A stretch of 64,000 nucleotides of DNA from Dehalococcoidia bacterium (GCA_965219085.1 OZ244720.1:1664001-1728000), one strand, 5' to 3'; shown: positions 1 through 15,013, counted from the first letter of the stretch. The notes: a model not told the origin generated them from the letters alone. Numbers and translations: made by a program.

Positions 1-549
1 GCGGGCCTGCTCGTGGGCGACATCGTCATCGCGATCGATGGGGCGCCGCTGCGCACCGCGGCCGAGCTGCGCGCAGCGGTGCAGGCGGTGATAGCCGGCG
101 AGGTCTACGCGCTGACGCTGCACAGCGGCGGCACGACGCGCGTCGTCGATGTCGAGCGTACGCATGCGGAGGACTCATTCTGGCGGTCGGACATGCTGCG
201 CACGCTGGCGCTTGGCTTGATGCTCGCCAACCGCCCGGGCGGGCTGGCGTTGCCGCCGTCGCTGCTTGGCGAACTGCTGGAGGAGACGCCCGACGGCCTG
301 CGCGTGTTCGCCGTCTTCCCCGGCTCGCCCGCCGACTCAGCCGGACTGCGCGCGGGCGACTACGTCCTCGCCATCGAGGGCCGCCCGATGCGCACCCTCG
401 ATGACCTCAACGCGCTGATGACCACCTTCAACCCGATCGCCGGCGAGACCGAGGTCACGCTGCGCCGTGATGGCGAAGAGATGACGGTCCGAGTTGCGTT
501 CCGGATCGGCGGGCTGTTCGGCGCCGGGACGCCGATACAGGTGGAGTAA
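1..549 (+). CDS. PDZ domain-containing protein (5' partial)
   Basis: Two PDZ-like segments (GLLVGDIVIAIDG; VFPGSPADSAGLRAGDYVLAIEG); frame is open from the window edge. Confidence 0.75.
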   Translation, partial: AGLLVGDIVIAIDGAPLRTAAELRAAVQAVIAGEVYALTLHSGGTTRVVDVERTHAEDSFWRSDMLRTLALGLMLANRPGGLALPPSLLGELLEETPDGLRVFAVFPGSPADSAGLRAGDYVLAIEGRPMRTLDDLNALMTTFNPIAGETEVTLRRDGEEMTVRVAFRIGGLFGAGTPIQVE

Positions 550-560
550 CTCGCCCCCGC

Positions 561-1826
561 TCATGGCGCCGCTTCCAGCAGCCCCGTGTCGTCGCGAGGG
601 AACACCGGCGCCCACGTGATGTCGGTGCGCACGCCCTCGAACGAGCGGCCTGTGTGGTGGGCGAGCACGCGCAGCATGAGCGCGTCGCGCTGCCGCAACG
701 CGGCGGTGCGGATCAGCCGCTTGCGCGCCACCTTGCGCAGCAGCGGGTCGAGCTCGATGCGCAGCGCGACGCCCGAGTGGTCGCCGCCACCGTCGCCGAA
801 GGCGACCCGCGGCGTCTCCGCAAGGTCGTGCAACGTGCGGTACACCAGGTCGACGTAGTCGACGTGGAGGCGCACGCCGCCGCCCTGCAGCAGATCCAGC
901 AGGTACGCGCGCGCCTGCTCCGGCAGCTCCCACACGGCGCCCGGCTGCACGGCGATGTCGCGTGACGCCTCGACGTTCTCGAGCACGGCGATGGGGTTGC
1001 CGGACAGCTCGATGATGCGACTGAGCTGCGTGAGCGCGCGGTTGAGTTCGACGATCGATTCGCGCAGCGGCTCGATGTCGGAGACGCCCCAGAGGTGCTT
1101 GGGGCGCGGCACGTTGGGGTAGAGCACAAACGGGATCACGCCGTACGGATTGGCTCGCGCCTCGGCGAGCTCCTCCTCGACCCAGAACTCGAAGCGGTCT
1201 GCGGTCCACACCTCCGTGACCTGCGCCGAGGCGGCCGGCTGGCCGCCTGCGCCGCGCGGCAGCCGGCCCGTGCGCGCCTCGACCTGCTCGGGCGCGACCT
1301 CGTAGCGGGACGCGACACGCCAGATGCGGCGCACGTCGTCGCCCAGGCTCCACACGTGCAGGCCCTGCACGTCGGGCGCGGAGACGACGACGCGCTGCTC
1401 GCGCTCGTCCCACGTCACCTTGTACGCGCCGTCGCCGAGCACTGCGGTGTCGAGCTCGCCGTCGAGATCGAGCCGCAGCAGGTCGTTCGCCTCCCACAGT
1501 TCGAGCAGCGCCTGCTCGGCCTCGGCGGCGCGACGGCGGCCCTCGGACGTCTCCCCGGTCGCGGTGACCACCGGGCGGTGGTCGCTCACGAGGTAGGCGG
1601 CGCCTTTCTCGACGAACGCGCGGGCGTAGTTGAACTGCAGCATGCGCTCGCGCGGCGACCCGGCTGGCGCGCCGCGGCGGCCCTCGAAGAAGTCGAGCAG
1701 CTCGCGGTAACGCGCGAATCGGGCGCGGTCGCGCTGCGCGAGCGTGCGCGGGAACGGCACGTGCGCGGCGGACGAGGCTGTCGAGGGAGCCCGCGGGATG
1801 CCGAGGCTCGTGACGGTGGCGGTCAT
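561..1826 (-). CDS. Phage portal protein, SPP1 Gp6-like
   Basis: Portal-typical motifs FNYARAFVEKGAAYL, VLGDGAYK, NPYGVIPFV, GVSDIEPL, SGVAL; lies downstream of terminase. Confidence 0.85.
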   Translation of the reverse strand: MTATVTSLGIPRAPSTASSAAHVPFPRTLAQRDRARFARYRELLDFFEGRRGAPAGSPRERMLQFNYARAFVEKGAAYLVSDHRPVVTATGETSEGRRRAAEAEQALLELWEANDLLRLDLDGELDTAVLGDGAYKVTWDEREQRVVVSAPDVQGLHVWSLGDDVRRIWRVASRYEVAPEQVEARTGRLPRGAGGQPAASAQVTEVWTADRFEFWVEEELAEARANPYGVIPFVLYPNVPRPKHLWGVSDIEPLRESIVELNRALTQLSRIIELSGNPIAVLENVEASRDIAVQPGAVWELPEQARAYLLDLLQGGGVRLHVDYVDLVYRTLHDLAETPRVAFGDGGGDHSGVALRIELDPLLRKVARKRLIRTAALRQRDALMLRVLAHHTGRSFEGVRTDITWAPVFPRDDTGLLEAAP

Positions 1827-2206
1827 CGGGACGTCTCCTTCGTGCTGTTTCGCGCCGGCGCGCCCTCGCGGGCCGGTTTGCGCTGCGTGCCGTGGGCGCC
1901 TTCGAGCGCGCGGAACACGGTGCGGCGCGAGACCTGGAAGCGGCGCGCGATCTCGTTCACCGGCGCCTCGTCGTCGAAGCGCATGCGGCGGATCTCACGG
2001 TCGCGCGTGCGGTTGAGCATCGCGCGCACGCCGCCAGGCTCGTCGTAGCGGCAGCGTGGCAGTGGGCAGCTCAGGCACGAGGGGAACAGGTCGCAGCCGC
2101 GGTCGCGGTAGTCGACGTGCTCGGGCAACGCGTCCTCGCGCGCCAGCCGCGGCTGCACCTCGGGGGGTTCGAGGGTCGGTGTCGGGCTCGGTGAAGCGTG
2201 ACTCAT
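1823..2206 (-). CDS. 4-Cys motif plus helix-turn-helix protein
   Basis: CDLFPSCLSCPLPRC followed by HTH VNEIARRFQVSRRTVFRAL; 4-bp overlaps with both neighbours. Confidence 0.75.
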   Translation of the reverse strand: MSHASPSPTPTLEPPEVQPRLAREDALPEHVDYRDRGCDLFPSCLSCPLPRCRYDEPGGVRAMLNRTRDREIRRMRFDDEAPVNEIARRFQVSRRTVFRALEGAHGTQRKPAREGAPARNSTKETSR

Positions 2207-3627
2207 GCGGATACCTCCAGGTGGTCAGGCGCGCTGAGCGCGCCGCGGCCCCGCGCCGTACGCGATCCGCCCGCGTCGCGGGCGGCGTCGACGGCAAGCG
2301 CGAGGCTCATCAGGTAGTCGTCGTGTCCCTCGCCGGGGTCGACGTGGAACTGCATCGTGCGTTCGTCGCGGTAGACGGCGCGGGCCAGCTCCAGCTGTCG
2401 GCGGCACTCGGCGGCCTCGGCCGAGCCGTCCGCGCGGTACAGCCGGAGCCGCCCGGAATGCGCCGCCGCGAGCAGGCCGAAGCCGAGCTGCGACTTGCGC
2501 GGCGTGCTGAACACCACCGCATCGACGCGGCCGGCGGGGAGACGGCGCGTGAGCAGGTCGGCGATGGGTGCGCCGAGGCCCGTCGCGTCGACGGCGAGGC
2601 GGCGCACGCGCCAGACGTTGCGCAGCCGGTCGGCCAGCGTCCCGACGATCGCGTCGGTCGCCTCGCCGCGCCACGCCTGGTGCTCGACCACCTCGATCGC
2701 CGGCAGCCCGCCTGTTTCCGAGCGCACGCGCGCGATGGTCAGCACGGTCCAGTCGCGGTCGCCGCCCTGTGCGCGGCCGTCGAGGGCCGGCCCCGCGAGG
2801 TCGAGGCCGGCGACGTAGCGCTCGCCGGGAAGGGGCGAGCGCAGCCGGTCGTGGCGACCCTCGATCTGTGCGCGCACGGCAGCGTCGAGCAGGCGATCCT
2901 CGTCGTGCAGCACCTCGAGGAGGTACTGCGTGCGGAAGATCGGGTGGCGCTCGCCGAGCCGCGCACGCTCGCCGTCGACGTACGCCCCGTAGGCGGGGTT
3001 GTAGTCGGCGACGCGCTGCCAGTCGACGCGGAAGTGGCGGCGCGGGCCGCCCGCCCGCTCGGCGTCGAGGTGCTGGGCCTCGGCCTGCGCGAGCAGTGAG
3101 CGCGGCCCCCACGGCGTGCCGTAGTAGACGACGGGCGCGTTGGTCGAGGCCGCCATCGGGCGGAAGTCGCGGTCGAACTTGTCCGGCCGCACGTCCTGCG
3201 CCTCGTCGACCTCGAGCAGCACGTCGGCCGTGTGGCCCACGACGTTCGCGCCGGGCTCGGCGGAGAGGTAGCGCACGCTCGCGCGGCCGCAGCGCACCGT
3301 CGCGGCGCCCTCGCGCGCGACGATGCGTTCGAGGCCCGCCTCGCGTGCGCGGGCGAGCAGCCGGTCGCGCGAGAGCACGGCCTGGGGCGCGAACGTCGGC
3401 GCGCACTTCACGACCGTGCCGCCGCGCGTCGCGCGCGTGAGCAGCAGCGCGAGCTCGACCTGCGCCGAGATCTCGTTCTTGCCGCCCTGGCGCGCGATCA
3501 GCACGGAGATCGAGCCGCCCTCGCGCGCTGCGGTCATGGCGAGGATCGCGCGGGCGACCTCGGCCTGGTACGGGCGGAGCTTCGGCAGCGCCCGCTCGCG
3601 TGGCGCCGGCGGCGCGAGGGCGCTCAT
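2203..3627 (-). CDS. Terminase large subunit-like protein
   Basis: Walker A ARQGGKNE, Walker B LLEVDEAQ, motif III YGTP, RNase H-like nuclease motifs GLDLAG, VDATGLG, HDDY. Confidence 0.85.
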   Translation of the reverse strand: MSALAPPAPRERALPKLRPYQAEVARAILAMTAAREGGSISVLIARQGGKNEISAQVELALLLTRATRGGTVVKCAPTFAPQAVLSRDRLLARAREAGLERIVAREGAATVRCGRASVRYLSAEPGANVVGHTADVLLEVDEAQDVRPDKFDRDFRPMAASTNAPVVYYGTPWGPRSLLAQAEAQHLDAERAGGPRRHFRVDWQRVADYNPAYGAYVDGERARLGERHPIFRTQYLLEVLHDEDRLLDAAVRAQIEGRHDRLRSPLPGERYVAGLDLAGPALDGRAQGGDRDWTVLTIARVRSETGGLPAIEVVEHQAWRGEATDAIVGTLADRLRNVWRVRRLAVDATGLGAPIADLLTRRLPAGRVDAVVFSTPRKSQLGFGLLAAAHSGRLRLYRADGSAEAAECRRQLELARAVYRDERTMQFHVDPGEGHDDYLMSLALAVDAARDAGGSRTARGRGALSAPDHLEVSA

Positions 3628-3851
3628 CCGCCCACCACCCGGCTCAGCAGCTCGGTGATGCCGACGCCGACCACGGTCAGGAACAGCGCCGTGATGCGGC
3701 CGCGCAGCTCGGACAGCTCGCGCTCCACGCGGTCGAGCCGCCCGGCGAGGTCGTGCGGCGGCGGCAGGAGAGCCTGCGAGGCGCCGCGAGGACGAGCGAG
3801 CCTGCGCACAGCCTCGGCGAGCCGGTCGCGGGGTGGGCGGCGGCTACTCAC
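3624..3851 (-). CDS. Small coiled-coil plus C-terminal TM protein (holin/XhlA-like topology)
   Basis: GTG at 3851; RLDRVERELSELRGRI followed by hydrophobic ALFLTVVGVGI; overlaps terminase start. Confidence 0.55.
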   Translation of the reverse strand: MSSRRPPRDRLAEAVRRLARPRGASQALLPPPHDLAGRLDRVERELSELRGRITALFLTVVGVGITELLSRVVGG

Positions 3852-4164
3852 GGGCCGCCCCCAGCACCTCGCCGAACTCCTCGAGCACGTTCGCCACGGC
3901 GTCGCCGAGGTGCTCCGCCTGCTTCGGGGAGAGCCGATGCTGCGCGAGCAGCGCCTGCACCAGCAGGCGCACGCCGCTCTGCAGCACCTTCGGGTCGACG
4001 TCTCCGTCACGGCCGGCGAGGGCGCGGCGAAGCTGCAGCCGCAGCAGCGCGACCTCGTCGCCGAGACCCTCGACCTCGCGCGCGACGTGGAAGTCGTGGC
4101 GGTCGGTGGCCTCCAGTACGGAGTCGTAGAAGGAGCTGCGCGTGGGGCGCTCGATGGGGCTCAC
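3844..4164 (-). CDS. Helical protein, candidate terminase small subunit
   Basis: GTG at 4164; 106 aa helical (EGLGDEVALLRLQLRRAL); position upstream of TerL; function inferred from context. Confidence 0.5.
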   Translation of the reverse strand: MSPIERPTRSSFYDSVLEATDRHDFHVAREVEGLGDEVALLRLQLRRALAGRDGDVDPKVLQSGVRLLVQALLAQHRLSPKQAEHLGDAVANVLEEFGEVLGAARE

Positions 4165-4307
4165 CGGCGTTCCACGCTGAGCAGCGCGATCATCTCGTCG
4201 CGCGTCTCGGGCGCGGCCGTGTCGAGCGCGCGGAGCACGCCCAGCACAAGCCGCAGCGCCGCCGCCTCGTAGCGCTGTTCGCGCAGCGCAACGTCCAGGG
4301 CGCTCAT
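4161..4307 (-). CDS. Small hypothetical protein (48 aa)
   Basis: ATG at 4307, MSALDVALREQRYEAAALRLVLGVL; 4-bp overlaps at both ends. Confidence 0.5.
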   Translation of the reverse strand: MSALDVALREQRYEAAALRLVLGVLRALDTAAPETRDEMIALLSVERR

Positions 4308-4585
4308 CGCCCGGCCCCCAACGCGATGACGACGCCGGTGGCGGCGTTCGCGAGCAGCAGCGGGGCGCGCAGCAGCGCGCCCGCGGCGCCGGGCTCGGAC
4401 AGCCCGAGCGCCGCGACGGCGTCGAGGCTGATCGCGGCGAACAGCACCGTGAGCAGCAGCGCGCCGAGGCGTCGTGCGCCTCGCGCCTTGAAGCCGCGGT
4501 GCGCGAAGTAGGCGGCGTTCGCCGCGCCGGCGCCGGCGATCGCGGCATGTTCGGCGATGGCGACGCCGGACCAGAATGGATGCAC
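4304..4585 (-). CDS. Small membrane protein (about 3 TM)
   Basis: GTG at 4585 preceded by GAAGGGAAG RBS; hydrophobic helices; first gene of the operon. Confidence 0.55.
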   Translation of the reverse strand: MHPFWSGVAIAEHAAIAGAGAANAAYFAHRGFKARGARRLGALLLTVLFAAISLDAVAALGLSEPGAAGALLRAPLLLANAATGVVIALGAGR

Positions 4586-4628
4586 GGTCTTCCCTTCGTT
4601 GCGGCCGGGAGCGGGCCACGTGGAAGGG

Positions 4629-4658
4629 AGCGTAGAACACACGTTCGTGCCACGCCAA
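4629..4658 (-). promoter_or_regulatory. Sigma-70-type promoter with LexA (Cheo/DinR-type) box
   Basis: Minus strand TTGGCG-18nt-TACGCT; AGAAC-ACAC-GTTCG at 4634-4647 lies between -35 and -10. Confidence 0.7.
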
Positions 4659-4705
4659 GCCGTGCCCGGCACGCACAACGAACCCGATAACGAGAACGAC
4701 TGGGC

Positions 4706-5335
4706 CTACAGCACGACCGCCGGGATGCTCACGCGTCGTTCGAGGTGCTCGCGCGTCTCGATCGCGAGCGGGTGGACCTCGCGGCCCATCGCGCGGTCGC
4801 GCTGCTCGGTGAGCGTGAGGTAGGCGAGCGCGGCCGCCTCGAGCGAGTCGTCGGCGAGGGCGAGCACCTGCCGGAGGGCGGGCCAGGCGTCGAGCTTCTT
4901 CTCCTCGACCTTGTCGGCGACGAACATCGACCACGCCTCGGGGCCGTAGTCGGGGTGGCCGGTGGTGTGGTAGCGGATCGCGTCGAGCACGCGCGAGTCG
5001 CGCACGCCGAAGCGCTCCTCGAGTTCGAGCGCGCCGAGGGGGCCGTGCAGCAGCACCGGGCGCTCGCGCTCCATCGGCAGCACGGCGAGGCCGCGCTGCT
5101 CGGCCTTGCGCAGCCACTCCTGCTTCGAGAGCGCACGCAGCAGGTCGTGGCCCTGGGCGGCGAGCAGCGCGGCCGCGAGGTCGGCGTCGTGGCCGCGGGC
5201 GAAGCGCTCGGTGAGGCCCACGACGCGCGCGATGTGCGCCATCATCACGGTCGGCACCTCGGGCGCCATGCGGCCGCGCAGCGCGAAGTGGTCGGGCTCG
5301 GTGCGGAAGGTGCGGCGCTCGCTCGTGTCCGGCAT
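4706..5335 (-). CDS. yqeK: HD-domain symmetrical Ap4A hydrolase, YqeK family
   Basis: HD motif GHDL, LLHGPLGA, AIRYHTTG, FVADKVE; ATG at 5335. Confidence 0.8.
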   Translation of the reverse strand: MPDTSERRTFRTEPDHFALRGRMAPEVPTVMMAHIARVVGLTERFARGHDADLAAALLAAQGHDLLRALSKQEWLRKAEQRGLAVLPMERERPVLLHGPLGALELEERFGVRDSRVLDAIRYHTTGHPDYGPEAWSMFVADKVEEKKLDAWPALRQVLALADDSLEAAALAYLTLTEQRDRAMGREVHPLAIETREHLERRVSIPAVVL

Positions 5336-5405: not shown

Positions 5406-5443
5406 CTTTGCGTTGGGCCCCATGTGTGGTGCGCCGACGCTAG

Positions 5444-6619
5444 GGATGGTCTGATCAGGTGGCGTGTCGGGCGCGGTGCGTATCGATCAGCGGGCCGAGC
5501 CGCGCTGTGGGGGCCCGATACCGCGGTCCATGGGTGGTCTCGCCTCCATGTCGCTCCGGAAGCGCTCCGGCGGGCGATTCGGGACGCACGGCTCCCGCGA
5601 TCAGGCGAGCTGAGGCTCGGCTCGCAACAGGTTCGTGAAACCGAGCAGCAGCATGAGACGCTGGCGGTTCTTCTCAAGACCCCGGTAGCGCACCTGCGCG
5701 TACCCGAAGTGCCGCTTCACGTAGAGAAACGGATGCTCAGCCTTGGCGCGCACCGAGGCCTTGCGCCGCTCCGCCTGCGCCTCCTCGCCCCCCGGCGCCA
5801 GCTGCCGCCTGAGACCCGGGCGCAGCGCCACCTGCCAGCTCACCTCCGACCCCGCGTGCTCCGGGCGCTTCTCCACTCCCTGGTAGCCGGCGTCGCCCCA
5901 CGCCTCCGTCTCACCCCCGTGCAAGAGGCGATGCGCCTCGGTCACGTCGGAGACGTTCGCCGCCGTCGTGCTCACGCTGTGGACCAGCCCCGTCCGCGCA
6001 TCCGTGCCGGTGTGCAGCTTCATCCCGAAGAACCACTGCCGGCCCTTGCTGGTCTGGTGCATCTCGGGGTCGCGCGCACGCTCGCGGTTCTTCGTCGATG
6101 ACGGCGCGCTGATGATCGTGGAGTCCACGATCGTGCCCTCGCGCACCTGCAGACCGCGCGCTGCGAGGTGCGCGTTGATCGTCGCAAACAGCGCCGTTCC
6201 CAACTGATGACGCTCCAGCAGGTGACGGAAGTTGAGGATCGTCGTCTCATCGGGAATCGGCTCGGAGAGGCTGAGACCGGCGAACTCGAGCATCGAGCGG
6301 GAGTCGTAGAGTTCCTGCTCCATGCCGGGGTCGCTGAGGTTGAACCAGAGCTGTAGGCAGTGGATGCGCAGCATCACGCGCAGCGGGTAGGGGCGGCGTC
6401 CGCGGCCGCGCTTTGGATAGACGGGCGCGATGCGCTGCTCCAGCTCCGCCCAGGGGACGAGCCCGTCCATGCGCTCGAGGAACGTCTGCCGCCTCGTCTT
6501 GACCTTCTTGTGCTCGTACTCGACGCTGCCGAACGAACGCTGCTGCATGGGTCGCCCCTCTCCGGGTCGCCCCATGATCGCATCTGCTCACCCGCTCAGG
6601 CGAGTTGTTCAGACCATCC
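5444..6619 (-). mobile_element. IS5-family insertion sequence
   Basis: Terminal IRs GGATGGTCTGA / TCAGACCATCC; CTAG direct repeats at 5440-5443 and 6620-6623. Confidence 0.92.
5601..6548 (-). CDS. IS5-family DDE transposase
   Basis: FLERMDGLVPW, MLRIHCLQLWFNLSD, IPDETTILNFR, IVDSTII, GMKLH, WGDAGYQG, RAKAEHPF. Confidence 0.93.
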   Translation of the reverse strand: MQQRSFGSVEYEHKKVKTRRQTFLERMDGLVPWAELEQRIAPVYPKRGRGRRPYPLRVMLRIHCLQLWFNLSDPGMEQELYDSRSMLEFAGLSLSEPIPDETTILNFRHLLERHQLGTALFATINAHLAARGLQVREGTIVDSTIISAPSSTKNRERARDPEMHQTSKGRQWFFGMKLHTGTDARTGLVHSVSTTAANVSDVTEAHRLLHGGETEAWGDAGYQGVEKRPEHAGSEVSWQVALRPGLRRQLAPGGEEAQAERRKASVRAKAEHPFLYVKRHFGYAQVRYRGLEKNRQRLMLLLGFTNLLRAEPQLA

Positions 6620-7570
6620 CTAGGTGTAGTGTCCCGGGACGTTGTTGACACGGCTGATCGGGGGTTCACCTCCGATCGCGGTGTGGCAACGGTGATGATT
6701 GTAGCGGTGCAGCGAAGGTCCGAGGGCGGCTGCGCGTTCGGCCTCGCTGCGGTAGACGCGGACGTAGGCCCACTCCTCGAGCAGCGTGCGGTGGAAGCGC
6801 TCGACCTTGCCGTTGGTTTGCGGGCGGTAGGGCCGGGTCCGCTTCGCCCGCCCGCCGCTGAGGCGGCAGGCGGAGCTGAACAGGCGGCTCTTGTAGGCGC
6901 CGCCATTATCGGTGAGCACGGCCCGCACCTCGATGCCGAGCTCGGCGAACCAGGCCCACGCCCGCTGCAGGAAGGCGGCTGCGCTGACGGCGCGCTCGTC
7001 CGCGAGGATCTCGCTGTAGGCGAGGCGCGTGTGGTCGTCCACGGCGGAGTGGATGAAGGCGTAGCCGGCGCGGCTGCGCGGCGCCTGGCCCCGTCCGTGG
7101 GCGCGCCAGCCGCCGCCCGGGGGCATGCGCCCCAGCTTCTTGACGTCGATGTGCAGCAGGTCGCCCGGGCGGGCATGCTCGTAGCGCCGGGGGCGGCGGA
7201 TCCGCTGCCCGCTCGGGCGGTCGAGCCAGGCGAGGCGGTTGAGGCCGCGGCGGCACAGCACGCGGTGGACGGTGGAGGCGTGCATCCCGAGGCGGAAGCC
7301 GATGCGTGCCGGACCGAGCTTCTCGCGGCGGCGCAGGCGCTCGATCGCGCGCTCCAGCCGTGCCGGGACACGCGCCGGGGAGCGTCGCGGGCGGCTGGGG
7401 CGGTCATCGAGACCGGCCTCGCCCTCCTCCAGCCAGCGTCGCCACCACTTGTAGGCGGTCGGACGGGAGACGCCCATCTCGGCGGCGACGTGCGCGACCG
7501 CGCGGCCCGCGGCGATGCGTTCCACCATCGTGCGGCGGGCGAGGAAGGTCAGTCGGGCGTTACGATGCAT
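6620..7570 (-). CDS. IS481-family transposase
   Basis: HRNARLT N-terminus, [30 protein letters not shown]; stop codon lies in the flanking target DNA. Confidence 0.92.
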   Translation of the reverse strand: MHRNARLTFLARRTMVERIAAGRAVAHVAAEMGVSRPTAYKWWRRWLEEGEAGLDDRPSRPRRSPARVPARLERAIERLRRREKLGPARIGFRLGMHASTVHRVLCRRGLNRLAWLDRPSGQRIRRPRRYEHARPGDLLHIDVKKLGRMPPGGGWRAHGRGQAPRSRAGYAFIHSAVDDHTRLAYSEILADERAVSAAAFLQRAWAWFAELGIEVRAVLTDNGGAYKSRLFSSACRLSGGRAKRTRPYRPQTNGKVERFHRTLLEEWAYVRVYRSEAERAAALGPSLHRYNHHRCHTAIGGEPPISRVNNVPGHYT

Positions 7571-7694
7571 CGGAGCCTCCAGGTGCAAGGTGCTGGCTTG
7601 TTACTCACACCTTCTCCCGGAGGCTCCCTTCACGAGCAACCCCTGCAGGGTTCAAGACGCCCTGCAGGGGTCAACAACGTCTGTGGACGTTACA
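6625..7694 (-). mobile_element. IS481-family element (copy A)
   Basis: TGT...ACA ends with imperfect IRs; GCTAGG target duplication, left copy interrupted by IS5. Confidence 0.9.
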
Positions 7695-9099: not shown

Positions 9100-9208
9100 A
9101 GGCTAGGGACGGCGCGTTACCGCGCCGTGCCATCCGCGTGAACTCCGGGAGACGGATCGGTTGCCGCGGCGTGACGAGGGGTTGTCGGTGGCGTGAACGC
9201 GGTGTTTC
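9100..9208 (-). promoter_or_regulatory. narK promoter with nine 11-bp-spaced GlnR/OmpR-like half-sites
   Basis: Pentamers at 9116, 9127, 9138, 9149, 9160, 9171, 9182, 9193, 9204; -10 TAGCCT at 9100-9105. Confidence 0.6.
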
Positions 9209-9210
9209 GC

Positions 9211-9342
9211 GCGCTCAGGCGCTGGGTGCCTCGACCGCGCTGACGCGCTGGGCCGCCTCGATCGCGCTCAGGCGCTGGGCCGCCTCGATCGCGCTCAGGC
9301 GCTGGGCCGCCTCGACCGCGCTGACGCGCTGGGCCGCCTCGA
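9211..9342 (-). repeat. 27-bp tandem repeat (about 5 units) at the nasA 3' end
   Basis: Unit GCGCTGGGCCGCCTCGATCGCGCTCAG encodes (R[LV]SA[IV]EAAQ)n. Confidence 0.85.
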
Positions 9343-11482
9343 CGCGGACGGCAGCGAACTTCAGCTCGGGCTGCTTCGAGCGCGCGTCGATCGCCTCGCT
9401 GGTGGCGTTGTTGGTGACCGCGTGGCGGCTAAAGAGTTCGCCCCAGTGGAACGGCGCGAAGACCGCTCCGCTGCGGATCGTGTCGGTCACGCGCGCCCGC
9501 ACTTCGAGGCTGCCGCGCCGCGACGTGACGCGCACGAGCTGCTTGTCGCTCACGCCGAGGTCGTCGGCGTCGTCGGGGTGCATCTCCAGGAAGGGCTCGT
9601 ACTCGCTGCGCATCAGCTTTGGCACCTTGCCCGTGCGGGTCATCGTGTGCCACTGGTCCTTGACGCGGCCCGTGAGCAGCGCGAGGGGGTACTCGTCGCT
9701 GAGTAGCTCCGCGGGCGTGCGGAACCCCGTCGGGTGGAAGCGCGCGCGTCCGTCGGGCGTGGGGAAGCGGCCCGCGCCGAACAGCCGCGGCGACCGCGCG
9801 ACCTCGCCGGTGGCGTTGGCGAGCACCGCGCCCTCGGGGTGCGGCCACTGGATGCCCGTGCCGGCCTCGCGCAGCAGGTCGTAGCTGACACCGGTGATGT
9901 CGAGGTCGCGGCCGCGGGTCAGCTCGCGGTACTCGTCGAAGATCGCCTCGGTATCCTCGTAGTCGAACGCGTCGCCGTATCCGAGCGCGTCGGCGATGCG
10001 GCAGATGATCCGCCAGTCCGGCAGCGCGAGGCCCGGCGCCTCCCCGATCTGTTCGAGGAGGCAGATGCGCCGCTCGCTGTTGGTCATCGTGCCCGGGCGC
10101 TCCGACCACTGCGCCGCGGGCAGGAGCACGTCGGCGATGCGTCCCGTCTCGGTCGGGTAGTACGCGTCCTGCACGACGACGAGCTCGGCGCGGCGCAGCG
10201 CCGCGCGCACGCGCTCGGCGTTGGGGAGCGAGGCGACCGGGTTCGTCGCGGCGATCCATACCACCTTCACCTCGTCGCGTTCGAGCGCCTCGACCATCTC
10301 GATCGCGGTCAGGCCGGGGCGGTCGGAGATCGAGCCCGGCTCGATGCCCCACGCGCGCTCGACCTCGGCGCGGTGGCCGGCGTCGGCGACGAGGCGGTGG
10401 CCGGGCAGCGTCGTGGCGAGTCCGCCGCATTCGCGCCCGCCCATCGCGTTGGGCTGGCCGGTGAGCGAGAACGGCCCCGCGCCGGGCTTGCCGATGTTTC
10501 CCGTGGCGAGCGAGAGGTTGATCAGCGCGAGGTTCTTGTCGACGCCCGACGTGCTCTGGTTCGCGCCCATCGTCCATAGGCTCAGCATCGGCCCGTTGTT
10601 GGCGATGATGCGCGCCGCGTCGACGATCTCCTGCGCGTCGAGGCCGGTGACCGACGACGCGCGCTCGGCGGACCAGCCCTCGAGCGCGGCTTCGGCCTCC
10701 GCCCAGCCGCTCGTGCGATCCTCGATGAACGCGGCGTCGAGGCCGCCCGCGAGGCGCACCTCGAAGAGCAGCGAGAGCAGTAGCGCCACGTCGGCGCCGG
10801 GCAGCACCGGCAGGTGGAGGTCGGCGATCTCGGCGGTGCGAGTCCGCCGCGGGTCGACGACGATCACCTGCACGCCGTCGCGGTCCGCGCGCTTCCGCGC
10901 CTTGATGCGGTCGAAGAGGATCGGGTGGCAGGCCTCCATGTTCGCGCCGAGGATGAGGAACGTGTTCGCCTCCTCGATGTCGGCATAGGACGCGGGCGGC
11001 GAGTCGGCGCCGAACGCGAGGTTGTACGCGGCGACGGCGCTTGCCATGCACAGCCGCGAGTTGGTGTCCTGGTTGTTGGTGCCGATGAACCCCTTCGCCA
11101 GCTTGCCGAAGAGGTAGTAGTCCTCGGTCATGAGCTGGCCGGAGCCGTAGAGCATGACCGAGTCCGGCCCGTGCTCCTCGACGTTGCGGCGGATCGTGTC
11201 GGCGACGCGGTCGATGGCCTCGTCCCAGCCGGTGACGCGGGTGTGCCCGCCCTTGCGGTCGCGCACCATCGGGGTGAGCAGGCGGTCGCCGGTGTCGAAG
11301 ACCTGGCCGAGCAGGGCGCCCTTGGCGCAGAGCTTGCCCTTGTTGACCGGGTGGTCGGGGTCGCCGCGGACCTCGCGCACGACGCCGTCCTTCGCACGCG
11401 CGAGCAGGCCGCAGCCGGTGCCGCAGTAGCAGCAGACCGAGCGACGCCAGCCGTCACCGGTCAGGAGCGGCATCCGCGGCAT
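9215..11482 (-). CDS. nasA: Assimilatory nitrate reductase catalytic subunit (NasA/NarB, Mo-bisPGD)
   Basis: CCYCGTGC...LCAKG 4Fe-4S motif, DTNSRLCMAS, LTGQPNAMGGRE, WHTMTRTG, KQPELK. Confidence 0.92.
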   Translation of the reverse strand: MPRMPLLTGDGWRRSVCCYCGTGCGLLARAKDGVVREVRGDPDHPVNKGKLCAKGALLGQVFDTGDRLLTPMVRDRKGGHTRVTGWDEAIDRVADTIRRNVEEHGPDSVMLYGSGQLMTEDYYLFGKLAKGFIGTNNQDTNSRLCMASAVAAYNLAFGADSPPASYADIEEANTFLILGANMEACHPILFDRIKARKRADRDGVQVIVVDPRRTRTAEIADLHLPVLPGADVALLLSLLFEVRLAGGLDAAFIEDRTSGWAEAEAALEGWSAERASSVTGLDAQEIVDAARIIANNGPMLSLWTMGANQSTSGVDKNLALINLSLATGNIGKPGAGPFSLTGQPNAMGGRECGGLATTLPGHRLVADAGHRAEVERAWGIEPGSISDRPGLTAIEMVEALERDEVKVVWIAATNPVASLPNAERVRAALRRAELVVVQDAYYPTETGRIADVLLPAAQWSERPGTMTNSERRICLLEQIGEAPGLALPDWRIICRIADALGYGDAFDYEDTEAIFDEYRELTRGRDLDITGVSYDLLREAGTGIQWPHPEGAVLANATGEVARSPRLFGAGRFPTPDGRARFHPTGFRTPAELLSDEYPLALLTGRVKDQWHTMTRTGKVPKLMRSEYEPFLEMHPDDADDLGVSDKQLVRVTSRRGSLEVRARVTDTIRSGAVFAPFHWGELFSRHAVTNNATSEAIDARSKQPELKFAAVRVEAAQRVSAVEAAQRLSAIEAAQRLSAIEAAQRVSAVEAPSA

Positions 11483-11502
11483 CGCGCGCTACCTGCTACC
11501 CG

Positions 11503-13035
11503 CTACCCGATGGCGACGAGGGACCGCGCGCGCTCACGTAGCGCGTCGGCGCCTCGCAGCGACCGCAGCTGTGCGGCGACGGCTTCGGGCAGGTCCGGCG
11601 TCAGCACGCCCTCGGCGGTGCGCTCACCGAGCCGCGCGTCGTCGCCGAGGCAGCCGCCGGCGAACACATCGGCTGCGTCGAGGATCTCGCCGTCGACGCG
11701 CTTGCGGTCGCCGAGCAGGCCGATCTCGGCGGCGCGGTGCTGGCCGCAGGCGTGCGGGCAGCCCGACATCTGGATGCGCACCGGCTCGTCGATCTCGTAG
11801 CGCTCCTCGAGCGCGCTCGCGAGCCTGAGCGCCTCCTCCTTCGTGTCGATGAGGCTGAAGTGGCAGTAGTCGTTGCCCGTGCAGGTCACGACCGAGCGCA
11901 CCCAAGGCGAGGGCTTCGGGCTGTACGTCTCCAGCAGCGGCTCCGCGAGCAGCGCGCCGAGGCGCTCGTCGGGTACGTTCGGGATGAGCACGTTCTGTTG
12001 CACGGTGAGTCGCAGCTCGGCGGTGCCGTACTCGGCCGCGAGCCGTCCGAACTCGATCAGGTCGTCGCCGCTCACGCGCCCCACGGGCACGAGGCAGCCG
12101 ACGACGCTGCGGCCGGGCTGCGCCTGCGGCGAGATGCCGATGTGGTCGCCGCCGTGCTTGCTGGTCGCGGACCGCGCCGCGCGCTCCAGGGGCACGCCCA
12201 CGCGCTCCTCGACGGCCGCGCGGAAGCGCTCGATGCCCCACGCGCCGAGCAGCACCTTGAGCCGCGCCCGCTTGCGCTGCTCGCGGGGTCCATGGTCGCG
12301 GAACGTCTCGAGGATGGCGAGCGCGACCGGGACGACGCCCTCCGGCTCGACGAAGACGTCGAGGGGCCGCGCCAGCTCGGGCTGCTGCCCGCCGAGGGCG
12401 CCGCCGACGAGCACGTTGAAGCCGGCGATCTCCCGGCCGGCCTCGAAGCGCGTCGCGGGCGCGAACGAGAGGTCGTGCGTCTGCGCGTGCGCGCAGTCCT
12501 CGCGGCAGCCGGTGATCGAGAGGTTGAACTTGCGTGGCAGGTTGCTGAAGCGCTTGCCGCCGACGATCGCCTGCTGCAGGCGCTCGGCGAGCGTGCGCGC
12601 ATCGATCAGCTCATCGGCGTCGAGGCCCGCGAGCGGGCAGCCGACGACGTTGCGCACGTTGTCCATGCCGCTCTGCTGCGAGTTGAGCCCGGCGGCGGCG
12701 AGCCGCTGCAACACCCACGGGGCGTCCTCGATGGTGATCCAGCGCAGCTGGATGTTCTGGCGCGTCGTGATGTCCGCAGTGCCCCGTCCGCAGCGGTTCG
12801 CGATCTCGCCGATCGCGGTGATCTGCTCCGAGGTGAGCACGCCGTTGGGGATGCGCATCCGCAGCATGAAGTAGCCCGGCGTCGCCTTGCGGTGGAACAG
12901 GCCGTACCACTTCAGGCGCTCGAAGTCGTCGGCCGGGATGGCGTCGACGCCCTCGACGGCGTAGCGGTAGAGGTCCGGGAGGACGTCGAGGCCGTCCTTC
13001 GCGCTCTTGAGTGCCTCGATGCGGTTGGGCGCCAT
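11503..13035 (-). CDS. nirA: Ferredoxin-nitrite reductase
   Basis: RLKWYGLF, ITTRQNIQ, NLPRKFN, CTGNDYC...SGCPHACG siroheme/Fe-S ligands; ATG at 13035 with GGAGGAG RBS. Confidence 0.9.
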   Translation of the reverse strand: MAPNRIEALKSAKDGLDVLPDLYRYAVEGVDAIPADDFERLKWYGLFHRKATPGYFMLRMRIPNGVLTSEQITAIGEIANRCGRGTADITTRQNIQLRWITIEDAPWVLQRLAAAGLNSQQSGMDNVRNVVGCPLAGLDADELIDARTLAERLQQAIVGGKRFSNLPRKFNLSITGCREDCAHAQTHDLSFAPATRFEAGREIAGFNVLVGGALGGQQPELARPLDVFVEPEGVVPVALAILETFRDHGPREQRKRARLKVLLGAWGIERFRAAVEERVGVPLERAARSATSKHGGDHIGISPQAQPGRSVVGCLVPVGRVSGDDLIEFGRLAAEYGTAELRLTVQQNVLIPNVPDERLGALLAEPLLETYSPKPSPWVRSVVTCTGNDYCHFSLIDTKEEALRLASALEERYEIDEPVRIQMSGCPHACGQHRAAEIGLLGDRKRVDGEILDAADVFAGGCLGDDARLGERTAEGVLTPDLPEAVAAQLRSLRGADALRERARSLVAIG

Positions 13036-13055
13036 GGGCGTTCTCCTCCGCCCAG

Positions 13056-13120
13056 ACGATGGCGATCGCGCGTTACGGCGTGGCGACGCCCGCGTGAACG
13101 GCGCGTGAACGTTCGTTTTC
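13056..13120 (-). promoter_or_regulatory. nirA promoter with 11-bp-spaced GlnR-like half-sites
   Basis: GTTAC 13072, GCGAC 13083, GTGAA 13094, GTGAA 13105, TTTTC 13116; shares GCGCGTTAC...CCGCGTGAAC with the narK promoter. Confidence 0.6.
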
Positions 13121-13265
13121 GTGCGCATTGCGGCGAGGACGCTCGGAGATTGGCCCCGAGGAGGCGGCGGCACGGGGGGACGCTTTGCGACACAATGGAT
13201 CGAGGGGTGGGGGCGCGGGCCGGGCGGATCATCCGCCCTCGGTCTGGACGCAGGAGGGATCCGCC

Positions 13266-14051
13266 ATGACCATGCGCAGCCACGTGATCGACTACCGCAT
13301 CCACGGCGACGACTTGCAGTTCGTCGAGGTCGAGCTCGACCCCGGCGAGACCGTCATCGGTGAGGCCGGCGCGATGATGTTCCTCGAGTCCGACATCGGC
13401 TTCGAGACGAAGCTGGGCGACGGGAGCAACCCGGACCAGGGGCTCTTCGGCCGCCTCAAGGACGCGGGCAAGCGCGCCCTCGCACAGGAATCGATCTTCA
13501 TCACGCACTTCACCAACGAAGGCCGCGGCAAGCAGATCGTCGCGTTCTCGGCCGAGTTCCCCGGCAAGATCGTCCCGATGGACCTTGCGAGCCTCGGCGG
13601 CGAGATCATCGCCCAGAAGGACGCGTTCCTGTGCGCCGCCCTCGGCACGAAGATCGACATCGCCTTCCGCCGCAACCTCGGCACCGGCCTGTTCGGTGGC
13701 GAGGGCTTCATCCTCCAGAAACTGCAGGGCGACGGCATGGCGTTCCTGTCCGTCGGCGGCACGGTGATCGAGAAGGAGCTGCGCAACGACAAGCTGCTCG
13801 TCGACACGGGCTGCCTCGTGGCGATGGAGCCGACCGTCGAGTACTCGATCGAGCGCGCAGGCAACCTCAAGTCGATGATCTTCGGCGGCGAGGGGCTGTT
13901 CCTCGCGAGCCTGTCGGGCTACGGCAAGGTGTGGCTGCAGTCGCTGCCATTCTCGCGGCTCGCGAACCGCATCATCGCGAACGCGCCCAGCGCCGGTGGC
14001 AGCTCACGCGGCGAGGGCTCCCTGCTCGGCGGACTCGGCCCCGTCCGCTAG
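13266..14051 (+). CDS. TIGR00266/AIM24 family protein
   Basis: [53 protein letters not shown]. Confidence 0.88.
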
Positions 14052-15013
14052 ATGTAGTGTCCCGGGACGTTGTTTACAGGCGTGAGGCGGGGACAGCCCC
14101 GCCGATACCGCCGTGCGGTCGGCGAGCATTGTAGCGATAGAGCCAGCGCGAGGAGCACGTGGAGGCGTTCGGCGTTGGAGCGGTATGGCCGGGCGTACGC
14201 CCATTCGTTCTGCAGGATCTGGATGAAGCGCTCGGCCTTGCCGTTCGTCTGCGGCCGGTAGGGTCGGGTGTGCAGCAGCTCCACGCCCGCGGCGGCGGCC
14301 GTGCTGCGGAAGCTGCGCGCGACGGTGTAGGCCTTGGCGTTGTCGGTCAGCACGCGCCTGACGCGCACGCCGCGCCGGCTGAACGCCGCGAGCGCCTGCT
14401 CGAGGAAGGCACTACAGCTCGCGGCCCGCTCGTCGGGCAGGGCGGCGACGTACGCGTAGCGGCTGTGGTCGTCCACGGCGACGTGTAGGTACTCAAGGCC
14501 CAGCGACCGTCCCCGCTGCGGCCCGGAGCGCGTCTCGGCGAAGCCGGGTGCGATGCGCTTACCGCCACCCTCGGGGATGCGCCCCAGCTTCTTCACGTCG
14601 ATGTGCAGCAGGTCGCCGGGGGCTGGGTGCTCGTAGCGGACCGTCTCGCGGGTGACACGATGCAACCGGTCGAGGCGGTTGAGGCCAAAGCGCCTGAGCA
14701 CGGCGTAGACCGTGGAACGGGCGAGCCCGAGCGCCCAGGCGATGCGATGCGGCCCGAAGCCCGCACTGCGGCGCACGGCGCAGATGCGTTGCTCCAGCTC
14801 GGGTGCGGTGCGCCGGGGGTTCGAGCGCGGCGCCGAGGTGCGGTCCTCGAGCCCGTCCGCTCCTGCCTCGCGGAAGCGCCGCACCCACTTCGCGACCGTT
14901 GGGCGCGAGACCGGGAAGCGACGGGCGACCTCGGCCTGCGGCCAGCCGTCCTCCACCTCCCGGACCAACTCCAACCGGGTGACCGGCGTCAGACGCGCGT
15001 TACGATGTGCCAC
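14048..15013 (-). CDS. IS481 transposase with apparent +1 frameshift near the C-terminus
   Basis: DDE motifs present; expected tail [17 protein letters not shown] lies in another frame after about 14152. Confidence 0.82.

What the first reader, a model, noticed from the sequence alone, without database searches (positions are those of the whole stretch)
561..4660. Domesticated, SOS-controlled phage DNA-packaging operon (GTA-like candidate)
Seen: seven co-oriented genes joined by overlapping start/stop codons (membrane protein, 48-aa ORF, TerS-like ORF, coiled-coil/TM ORF, TerL with intact ATPase and nuclease motifs, 4-Cys-HTH protein, portal). They are bounded by host-type genes (PDZ protein, yqeK). 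No integrase, att repeat, replication, capsid or tail gene is adjacent, base composition looks host-like, and there is no sign of decay. Established: gene transfer agents are host-regulated, phage-derived packaging genes that are often split over several loci. Inference: this is a host-maintained packaging module, possibly part of an undescribed split GTA or other virus-derived machine in this lineage.
Basis: partly seen in the sequence, partly recalled or inferred. Interest (0 to 1): 0.82.

Follow-up and report, generated by a model that had tools for sequence, protein, structure and literature searches.

The report
Split SOS-controlled phage-derived particle genes
A Dehalococcoidia bacterium carries an intact, host-inherited set of phage head, DNA-packaging and tail-tip genes in two distant chromosomal loci behind matching DNA-damage operators, which looks like an undescribed gene-transfer-agent-like machine.

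Summary
Window 561-4646 (minus strand) holds seven translationally coupled genes: a small membrane protein, a 48-aa ORF, a TerS-position ORF, a coiled-coil/TM ORF, TerL, a 4-Cys HTH protein and a portal. A perfect GAAC-N4-GTTC box lies about 50 nt upstream.

- **Second locus:** the genome's only detected HK97-type capsid gene lies 604 kb away. With it are a scaffold-like gene, a head-tail adaptor, a 658-aa propeller plus baseplate-hub protein and a 71-aa ORF. The same box core precedes the capsid gene. The motif also precedes recA, a recQ-like gene, an IMS-family polymerase, a dnaE2-like gene, ruvB and a DUF5131 gene.
- **Inheritance:** TerL occurs in 18 of 18 sampled congeners and the capsid gene in 17 of 18. 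Identity tracks RecA, supported tree nodes agree, and dN/dS matches that of flanking host genes. Other families keep one contiguous cluster, so this genus split it.
- **Missing phage parts:** I found no integrase, att repeat, tRNA, second portal, tape measure, Dit or sheath.
- **Limits:** particle formation, DNA content and transfer are untested. Deeper distribution is patchy and several lineages carry broken copies. My literature searches found no description.

The parts
4635..4646 (.). LexA (SOS) box candidate GAACACACGTTC, about 50 nt upstream of the first gene's GTG
   Evidence: It is the only exact match in the window. The same 12-nt core lies 81 nt upstream of the unlinked capsid gene. 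The motif also precedes recA, a recQ-like gene, an IMS-family polymerase, a dnaE2-like gene, ruvB and a DUF5131 gene in this genome. A box with at most 1 mismatch lies upstream of the packaging operon in 13 of 14 relatives checked.
4304..4585 (-). 93-aa membrane protein with three hydrophobic stretches; candidate holin (inferred)
   Evidence: The frame is coding by GC3. A GTG start with an upstream GAAGGGAAG lies at 4585, and the stop overlaps the next start. No family hit. 92% identical in G018 with dN/dS 0.20; also detected in G020.
4161..4307 (-). 48-aa ORF of unknown role
   Evidence: Coding by the frame plot. ATGA and GTGA overlaps on its two sides. Conserved in G018, G014, G006, G001 and G020. 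dN/dS 0.21.
3844..4164 (-). 106-aa all-helical protein in the small-terminase position
   Evidence: Conserved upstream of TerL in 10 aligned lineages. The AF2 model has five helices and pLDDT 78.9. No fold match at E 0.001 and no family hit. Atlas neighbours are only Chloroflexota clusters, and the nearest named one is T5_Terminase_small at 0.82, which is a lead only.
3624..3851 (-). 75-aa coiled-coil protein with a C-terminal hydrophobic helix
   Evidence: Coding by the frame plot. GTG start at 3851 and an ATGA overlap with TerL. Conserved at lower identity (82% in G018, 35-40% in more distant congeners).
2203..3627 (-). Large terminase (ATPase plus RNase H-like nuclease)
   Evidence: phrog_7579 at 5e-9. 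Phage TerL hits at up to 31% identity, 3e-36. Several homologues carry PF17289. Catalytic motifs are invariant in 15 of 15. Found in 36 of 41 relatives.
1823..2206 (-). 127-aa 4-Cys plus HTH DNA-binding protein; candidate activator or DNA-recognition partner of terminase (inferred)
   Evidence: HTH hits fall below the Pfam cut-offs (Sigma70_r4, HTH_23, HTH_7). phrog_836 'late transcriptional activator' at 1.8e-5. Atlas neighbours are HTH_23 clusters. The cysteines and the D..PE motif are conserved. The gene always lies between TerL and portal.
561..1826 (-). Portal protein (SPP1 gp6-like)
   Evidence: PF05133 at 4e-11 and phrog_64 at 7.5e-20. It is the only portal found in the genome. dN/dS 0.085 against G018.

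Best explanation
This is one half of an anciently domesticated, phage-derived particle system of Chloroflexota. It resembles a gene transfer agent (a 'viriform').

**Shown**
- Twelve intact genes lie in two loci 604 kb apart.
- The window locus encodes a membrane protein, a 48-aa ORF, a TerS-position protein, a coiled-coil/TM protein, TerL, a 4-Cys HTH protein and a portal.
- The second locus (G000:C1:2269100-2273518) encodes a scaffold-like protein, an HK97-type capsid protein, a head-tail adaptor, a 658-aa beta-propeller plus gp27/Mu-gp44-type hub protein and a 71-aa ORF.
- Both loci are embedded in host genes. They co-diverge with the host, evolve under purifying selection like their neighbours, and carry the same LexA-type operator core in their promoter regions.

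**Inferred mechanism**
- DNA damage cleaves LexA and both loci are derepressed.
- Scaffold, capsid protein and portal build a procapsid.
- TerL, with the small helical protein and/or the HTH protein, fills the procapsid with double-stranded DNA and cuts it with its nuclease.
- The adaptor, a hub trimer and the 71-aa protein close the portal as a very short tail.
- The small membrane proteins help release.
- No single capsid-sized DNA piece could carry loci 604 kb apart, so the particles cannot propagate their own genes. They would carry host DNA to neighbouring cells.
For: **Second locus**
- The genome has one PF05065 capsid hit, 604 kb away.
- Its neighbours are a SU10_adaptor protein (PF24175, 1.5e-8), a 658-aa protein and a 71-aa ORF, flanked by a GNAT gene and ruvB.
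- The capsid protein matches phrog_212 at 1.5e-72.
- The 658-aa protein models at pLDDT 93.8. Its C-terminal ~340 residues match baseplate-hub and VgrG-type chains at E 1e-15 to 1e-9, and viral 'tail protein / protein D / Mu gpP' models.

**Operator**
- There are 39 exact boxes genome-wide. They include sites upstream of recA, a RecQ-like helicase, an IMS-family polymerase, a DnaE2-like polymerase, DUF5131 and ruvB.
- GAACACACGTTC lies before both loci.
- Boxes with at most 1 mismatch stand upstream of the packaging operon in 13 of 14 relatives, and at -47 to -81 of the capsid gene in 7 of 12.
- An exact box lies within 1 kb upstream of the capsid gene in 11 of 73 loci, against 0 of 73 inside the gene and 0 of 68 downstream.
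- Boxes also stand directly before TerL or the portal in four loci of other classes.

**Inheritance**
- TerL is in 36 of 41 relatives (18 of 18 congeners) and the capsid gene in 30 of 41 (17 of 18). All 30 capsid-positive genomes are TerL-positive.
- Identity to the window genome tracks RecA identity across 24 genomes (Spearman 0.94 for the capsid protein, 0.91 for TerL; kin are not independent).
- RecA, capsid and portal trees share every well-supported node.
- The 18 class members form one side of a branch against 6 sequences of other classes (support 87/80).
- Against G018, dN/dS is 0.08-0.36 for the 12 genes and 0.10-0.27 for 10 flanking host genes, with similar dS.

**Split**
- Other families keep terS-terL-HTH-portal-scaffold-capsid-adaptor-hub-71aa as one cluster. 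yqeK and ruvB sit at its ends in G034.
- In this genus the two halves lie 355-604 kb apart where both are on one contig.

**No other phage parts**
- No Peptidase_S78, tape measure or Dit was found, no sheath hit reached the cut-off, and there is no second portal.
- The module is single-copy. No att repeat or tRNA was found.
Against: - There is no experimental or expression evidence of any kind.
- No tail tube, tape measure or lytic enzyme was found in this genome. A hub attached straight to an adaptor is an unprecedented architecture as far as I recall, so DNA delivery is doubtful. A relative in another class does carry an Amidase_2 gene inside its cluster.
- The 'small terminase' has no family or fold support.
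- Distribution is patchy above genus level. In the same family, neither marker was convincingly found in 4 of the 6 other genera sampled, at one genome each.
- In the phylum sample the capsid profile hit 24 of 44 other genomes of the class and 22 of 356 genomes of other classes.
- Copies are broken or truncated in G009, G012, G017, G030 and G027, so the system is dispensable.
- Deep nodes of all trees are unresolved. Ancient horizontal spread between orders is therefore not excluded.
- An exact box upstream of the capsid gene is present in only 11 of 73 loci.
- Capsid size and DNA capacity are unknown.
Confidence: 0.55

Rival explanations
1. The gene set is domesticated and SOS-induced, but not for gene transfer. 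It could be a PBSX-like killer or defective-phage particle. It could instead serve damage-triggered altruistic lysis with DNA release, or a capsid used for some other cellular purpose.
For: The evidence for vertical inheritance, purifying selection and LexA boxes is the same as for the main reading. The hub protein has a large N-terminal beta-propeller of the sialidase/NHL kind that could bind or cut a surface polymer. No tube or tape measure for DNA delivery was found. SOS induction is the hallmark of PBSX-type elements (recalled).
Against: An intact terminase, with invariant ATPase and nuclease motifs in 15 of 15 sequences, and an intact portal are maintained. That argues that DNA packaging itself is under selection. 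A killing particle normally relies on a contractile or long tail, and none was found.
Confidence: 0.22
2. It is a capsid-forming satellite (cf-PICI-like), or a head-only element that borrows tails from an infecting helper phage.
For: The gene content (terminase, portal, scaffold, capsid, adaptor) without tube or tape measure resembles capsid-forming satellites (recalled). IMG/VR lists 287 related stretches as viral.
Against: No integrase, att repeat or tRNA was found. The two halves lie 604 kb apart in this genus. The position is stable between yqeK and ruvB across families. The genes co-diverge with RecA. The element has its own hub-type tail-tip protein. No other portal or capsid gene in the genome could mark a resident helper. 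All 80 IMG/VR contigs kept are short, 4.0-27.2 kb, and the 10 examined carry the same gene set.
Confidence: 0.08
3. It is a decaying cryptic prophage remnant with no present function.
For: Some lineages carry truncated or frameshifted copies (G009, G012, G017, G030, G027). Several genera lack the genes altogether.
Against: All 12 ORFs are intact here. dN/dS is 0.08-0.36, like the host neighbours. The genes are retained across a class, with capsid-protein identity tracking RecA. Translational coupling is kept at all six junctions. The operators are conserved.
Confidence: 0.04
4. It is a still-autonomous temperate phage whose remaining genes were simply not recognised.
For: Chloroflexota phages are poorly known, so tail, lysis or replication genes could escape the profile searches.
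Against: The two halves are separated by 355-604 kb of host genes in this genus. Flanks are housekeeping genes in every lineage examined: ABC transporters, a GNAT gene, ruvB, ProRS, GcpE, a histidine kinase and dnaE2. The closest isolated phages are at most 41% (capsid protein) and 31% (TerL) identical.
Confidence: 0.02

Closest known systems
RcGTA-type gene transfer agents of Alphaproteobacteria (Rhodobacter capsulatus, Caulobacter)
   Same: Both are phage-derived head and packaging genes fixed in the chromosome, vertically inherited and under purifying selection. Both are spread over more than one locus, lack integrase and replication genes, and are under host regulation. A link between LexA and RcGTA production is recalled, not checked here. 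Both have an HK97-family capsid protein (PF05065).
   Different: This element is in a different phylum. The gene set is much smaller (12 genes, about 8.5 kb) and has no tail tube, tape measure or head spikes. The tail tip is a single propeller-hub fusion directly after the adaptor. LexA boxes sit directly on both loci. No sequence comparison with RcGTA proteins was made. Function is unproven here.
PBSX-type SOS-inducible defective prophages of Bacillus
   Same: Both are chromosomal, non-propagating phage-derived particles induced by DNA damage. PBSX packages host DNA (recalled).
   Different: PBSX is one contiguous cluster with a full contractile tail and a lysis cassette, and it is confined to a narrow group. 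Here no sheath, tube or tape measure was found, the genes are split, and the family spans a phylum.
Capsid-forming phage satellites (cf-PICIs)
   Same: Both encode terminase, portal, scaffold, capsid and connector genes without a long tail (recalled).
   Different: Satellites are mobile, with an integrase, att sites and helper dependence. None of these was found here, and the genes co-diverge with the host.
Siphoviruses with phrog_212-type capsid proteins (e.g. Pseudomonas phage PaMx28, Clostridium phage vB_CtyS-FA70) and Bacillus phage vB_BboS-125 (TerL)
   Same: These are the nearest isolated viral relatives of the capsid protein (40-41% identity) and TerL (31%).
   Different: They are complete 55-58 kb phages. 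Identity is far below that among the Chloroflexota chromosomal copies, which is 55-97%.

Membership tests
Gene transfer agent / viriform | Phage-derived structural and packaging genes resident in a cellular chromosome without integration, replication or lysogeny genes | tested here: met
   The gene set was identified. Flanks are host genes. No att repeat or tRNA. The nearby rve-domain ORF is an IS481-type transposase that is absent from G018 and G014.
Gene transfer agent / viriform | Vertical co-divergence with the host under purifying selection | tested here: met
   Within the family the trees are congruent at all supported nodes. The class is separated from other classes on the capsid tree. 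Identity tracks RecA. dN/dS is 0.08-0.36, against 0.10-0.27 for host neighbours. Deep nodes are unresolved, and the patchy distribution needs repeated losses.
Gene transfer agent / viriform | The genes for the particle cannot travel together in one particle | tested here: met
   The two loci are 604 kb apart in this genome and 355-427 kb apart in G018, G004 and G001. The capsid's capacity itself is not known.
Gene transfer agent / viriform | Particles contain essentially random host DNA and deliver it to recipient cells | not testable with these tools
   This needs sequencing of DNase-protected particle DNA and transfer assays.
Gene transfer agent / viriform | Production controlled by host regulators | tested here: met
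   The evidence is in silico only. LexA-type boxes lie in both promoter regions, and the same motif precedes recA and other repair genes.
Intact temperate tailed prophage | Integrase with att sites, replication and lysogeny modules, and a complete tail and lysis cassette in one contiguous block | tested here: not met
   None is adjacent. No tape measure, Dit, sheath or prohead protease was found in the genome by the families tried. The block is split.
Capsid-forming phage satellite (cf-PICI) | A mobile island with integrase and att sites and patchy, horizontal distribution | tested here: not met
   No integrase or att sites. Synteny with yqeK and ruvB holds across families. The genes co-diverge with RecA.
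LexA (SOS) regulon, Gram-positive-type box | The palindrome GAAC-N4-GTTC in the promoter region, shared with core SOS genes of the same genome | tested here: met
   A LexA gene is present (PF01726, 3.9e-18). The claim that this motif is the LexA site in Dehalococcoidia is recalled from a 2002 paper that my search did not retrieve.
LexA (SOS) regulon, Gram-positive-type box | LexA binding and damage-inducible transcription | not testable with these tools
   No RNA run is listed for this stretch. EMSA or RNA-seq is needed.
Small terminase (for the 106-aa ORF) | Recognisable TerS family or fold | tested here: not met
   No Pfam or PHROG hit. No PDB sequence hit. No fold match at E 0.001. Only its position upstream of TerL supports the name.

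The most novel reading that the evidence does not exclude
Chloroflexota carry an independently domesticated GTA that predates the class Dehalococcoidia and is wired directly into the SOS regulon. Its particle would be a new minimal design: an HK97-type head whose portal-adaptor is closed by a trimeric gp27-like hub fused to a beta-propeller, with no tube or tape measure. If so, DNA-damage-triggered packaging and export of chromosomal DNA is a conserved trait of a large, mostly uncultured phylum.
Probability: 0.4. Interest if true: 0.9.

Novelty: new variant of a known kind. Interest (0 to 1): 0.82.

Why it matters
As far as I recall, only a handful of independent GTA lineages are known, and none is in Chloroflexota. 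My searches found no description of one. A 2024 GTA review has no occurrence of 'Chloroflex' or 'Dehalococc'.

This family occurs in at least 545 stretches of species-representative genomes. It is compact: 12 genes. It has a simple predicted switch, LexA. It is therefore a tractable system for three questions: how phages are domesticated, how little is needed to build a DNA-delivering particle, and how gene flow works in slow-growing, uncultured Dehalococcoidia.

There is also a practical point. IMG/VR holds 287 related stretches on contigs it lists as viral. The 80 best are 4-27 kb, and the 10 I examined carry this same gene set. Such chromosomal modules can therefore be counted as viruses in metagenome surveys.

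Tried and rejected
- **Expression.** No RNA holder is listed for window 561-4700.
- **Hub and 71-aa protein complex.** The complex-prediction job (hub residues 335-658 with the 71-aa protein) returned 'no answer'.
- **TerS-position protein.** It has no family, PDB sequence or fold match. The Atlas gave only a 0.82 lead to T5_Terminase_small.
- **71-aa protein.** It has no PDB sequence match better than E 0.15.
- **Promoter and terminator scan.** The consensus scan found nothing in 300-5000. That scan is not designed for this GC content.
- **Third locus.** Proteins that accompany the cluster in low-GC lineages (168, 508, 92, 74, 142 and 163 aa, and a DUF6941 protein) have no tblastn match in this genome. 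Other LexA-boxed genes of unknown function have no structural-phage PHROG hit.
- **Prohead protease.** None was found. A scaffold-based assembly is therefore assumed.
- **An unrelated Dehalococcoidia element.** A 2026 preprint on 'IME1' elements (10.64898/2026.09.15.751708; I read the abstract and passages) concerns elements that lack tailed-phage hallmark genes.
- **Errors to disclose.**
  - In one search the 'memb' query was translated in a wrong frame. This was corrected.
  - In one search the 'rimI' rows come from a wrong frame and are void.
  - The first 240 residues of the '390-aa' ORF used as a query are the antisense of a GNAT gene. Only residues ~241-390 (L033:9100-9552) are the scaffold-like protein.
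  - The gene map used to place boxes is a crude GC3 filter that covers 73% of the genome.
- **Papers.** Supplementary files were not consulted. Facts about RcGTA-LexA, PBSX, cf-PICIs, T7/P22 tails and the Dehalococcoides LexA site are recalled.

Full report
**What is in the window**

The window is G000:C1:1664001-1728000 of a 3.31-Mb single-contig genome with 69.8% GC. A GC3 frame plot and ORF list place seven genes on the minus strand between 561 and 4585:
- membrane protein, 4304-4585
- 48-aa ORF, 4161-4307
- 106-aa helical ORF, 3844-4164
- 75-aa coiled-coil/TM ORF, 3624-3851
- TerL, 2203-3627
- 4-Cys HTH protein, 1823-2206
- portal, 561-1826

Every junction overlaps: ATGA four times, GTGA once and one 8-nt overlap.

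The portal matches PF05133 and phrog_64. TerL matches phrog_7579 and phage terminases. Its Walker A-like, Walker B and nuclease residues are invariant in 15 of 15 homologues drawn from the class and from other classes. The cysteines of the HTH protein are conserved.

The flanks are a convergent PDZ-protein gene and a YqeK-like gene. Beyond the latter lie an IS5-family element, an IS481-family element and narK. Both IS elements are missing from the syntenic loci of G018 and G014. No att-like repeat and no tRNA was found.

**The missing capsid**

A search of the whole genome with PF05065 gave a single hit 604 kb away. That locus (L033 = G000:C1:2260001-2280000) reads as follows:
- a GNAT acetyltransferase gene on the minus strand
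- a 150-aa acidic scaffold-like protein, 9100-9552
- the capsid protein, 9757-10647 (phrog_212, 1.5e-72)
- a SU10-type head-tail adaptor, 10687-11319 (PF24175)
- a 658-aa protein, 11326-13302
- a 71-aa ORF, 13303-13518
- ruvB, convergent

The 658-aa protein has homologues only in Chloroflexota and no Pfam domain. It folds with pLDDT 93.8 into an N-terminal beta-propeller and a C-terminal domain. The C-terminal domain matches baseplate hubs of contractile injection systems, Mu gp44, T4 gp27, VgrG and siphovirus tail-tip proteins at E 1e-15 to 1e-9. It also matches viral 'tail protein / protein D' models.

Several other phage parts were sought and not found in the genome:
- No prohead protease, tape measure or Dit was detected.
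- No sheath hit reached the cut-off.
- No second portal was detected.
- The packaging genes are single-copy.

**SOS control**

The only exact GAAC-N4-GTTC in the window is at 4635-4646, about 50 nt before the first gene's GTG. Genome-wide there are 39 exact sites; I estimate about 25 from base frequencies. Sites stand just upstream of these genes:
- recA (PF00154)
- a RecQ-like helicase
- an IMS-family polymerase
- a DnaE2-like polymerase
- a DUF5131 gene
- ruvB

A LexA gene is present. The same 12-nt core, GAACACACGTTC, lies 81 nt upstream of the capsid gene's ATG.

Conservation of the box in relatives:
- A box with at most 1 mismatch lies upstream of the packaging operon in 13 of 14 relatives examined, and at -47 to -81 of the capsid gene in 7 of 12.
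- In 73 loci from named genome records, an exact box lies within 1 kb upstream of the capsid gene in 11. None lies inside the gene (0 of 73) or within 1 kb downstream (0 of 68).
- In four loci from other classes, a box stands directly before TerL or the portal. In one of them the cluster abuts the IMS-dnaE2 cassette.

Binding by LexA is inferred, not shown.

**Inheritance**

Names attached to homologues place the genome in Chloroflexota, class Dehalococcoidia.
- TerL was found in 36 of 41 relatives, including 18 of 18 other species of the genus.
- The capsid gene was found in 30 of 41, including 17 of 18 congeners. All 30 are TerL-positive.
- Gene order terS-(cc)-terL-HTH-portal is kept in all 13 loci where the genes were found together.

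In other families the two halves form one cluster. In G038 the order is terS-terL-HTH-portal-scaffold-capsid-adaptor-hub-71aa. In G034 the same order is bounded by yqeK and ruvB. The two-locus state of this genus is therefore a secondary split between portal and scaffold.

Identity to the window's proteins falls in step with RecA identity over 24 genomes (Spearman 0.94 and 0.91). This is descriptive only, because kin are not independent. RecA, capsid and portal trees agree at every supported node. On a wider capsid tree the 18 class members are one side of a branch against 6 sequences from other classes (87/80).

Against G018, the 12 genes have dN/dS 0.08-0.36 and dS 0.15-0.60. Ten flanking host genes have dN/dS 0.10-0.27 and dS 0.20-0.70.

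**Against a simple picture**

- In the same family, four of six other genera (one genome each) lack convincing hits to both markers.
- In a 401-genome phylum sample, the capsid profile hit 24 of 44 other class members and 22 of 356 genomes of other classes, but 6 of 6 and 4 of 4 in two genera.
- Broken copies occur in G009, G012, G017, G030 and G027.
- The system is thus dispensable and repeatedly lost. Deep tree nodes are unresolved, so old transfers between orders cannot be excluded.

**Relation to viruses**

The nearest isolated phages share at most 41% identity with the capsid protein and 31% with TerL. IMG/VR holds 287 related stretches. The 80 best lie on contigs of 4.0-27.2 kb, and the 10 I examined carry the same HTH-portal-scaffold-capsid-adaptor-hub-71aa set and nothing like a tail module.

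Clusters in other lineages are also flanked by housekeeping genes: glycosyltransferases, ProRS and GcpE in L060, and a histidine kinase in L057. One cluster includes an Amidase_2 gene.

**Interpretation**

The evolutionary statements are well supported: the genes are phage-derived, host-inherited, selected, split and LexA-boxed.

The mechanism is inferred from the known roles of these protein families. It runs: SOS derepression, procapsid assembly, terminase-driven packaging, closure by adaptor, hub and the small protein, release, and carriage of host DNA.

The weakest links are the identity of the small terminase, the absence of any tube, tape measure or lysin in this genome, and the total lack of expression or particle data.

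**Literature**

Searches on GTAs, terminase/portal/capsid, prophages and LexA in Dehalococcoidia, Chloroflexi and Chloroflexota found no description of this system. These were search listings only, with two exceptions:
- PMC11841831, where a term search gave 0 occurrences of 'Chloroflex' and 'Dehalococc'.
- The IME1 preprint, of which I read the abstract and passages and which is unrelated.

Noticed in passing
window 5440-7588: An IS5-family element (transposase 5601-6575, DDE_Tnp_1) and an IS481-family element (6620-7588, rve) sit between the YqeK-like gene and narK. Both are absent from the syntenic loci of G018 and G014. The IS5 end is repeated at least 18 times in the genome and creates a false N-terminal extension of the YqeK-like ORF.
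   Followed up: partly
window 1-549 (gene starts before the window): The PDZ-domain protein next to the portal is only 72-77% identical in G018 and G014, where neighbouring genes are about 92%. It is missing at this position in G006. It therefore evolves fast and is not part of the module.
   Followed up: partly
L033:9553-9756 (G000:C1:2269553-2269756): The scaffold-capsid spacer holds three tandem copies of a 9-nt GC-rich unit right after the scaffold stop codon, followed by the LexA box.
   Followed up: no
G000:C1:2638273-2638989: A second LexA-like gene (PF01726, 2.6e-10) lies beside an XRE-type HTH ORF and has its own GAAC-N4-GTTC box. A third LexA-domain hit is at 839866.
   Followed up: no
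L047 (G012:C4:1-14000): A 28.9-kb contig of G012 carries the capsid locus and its host flanks at 95-97% identity to the window genome. The main chromosome of G012 has its own, broken, copy at 80%. This looks like a second strain or a binning mix rather than gene transfer.
   Followed up: partly
L056:7066-20000 and L057:5559-15626: In other Chloroflexota classes the cluster order differs: the adaptor lies between portal and scaffold. One cluster carries an Amidase_2 gene. Another lies directly beside an IMS-dnaE2 cassette that has its own LexA box.
   Followed up: partly
G000:C1:821701-834633: A giant open frame of about 4,310 codons was seen while mapping boxes. It gave a sub-threshold Phage_sheath_1 hit that I regard as chance.
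   Followed up: no
L217:5961-8089, L060:11725-12003 and 14212-14700: Low-GC lineages insert extra genes into the cluster: a 168-aa protein (phrog_23653), a 508-aa protein, a 92-aa protein and a DUF6941 protein. None has a match in the window genome.
   Followed up: partly
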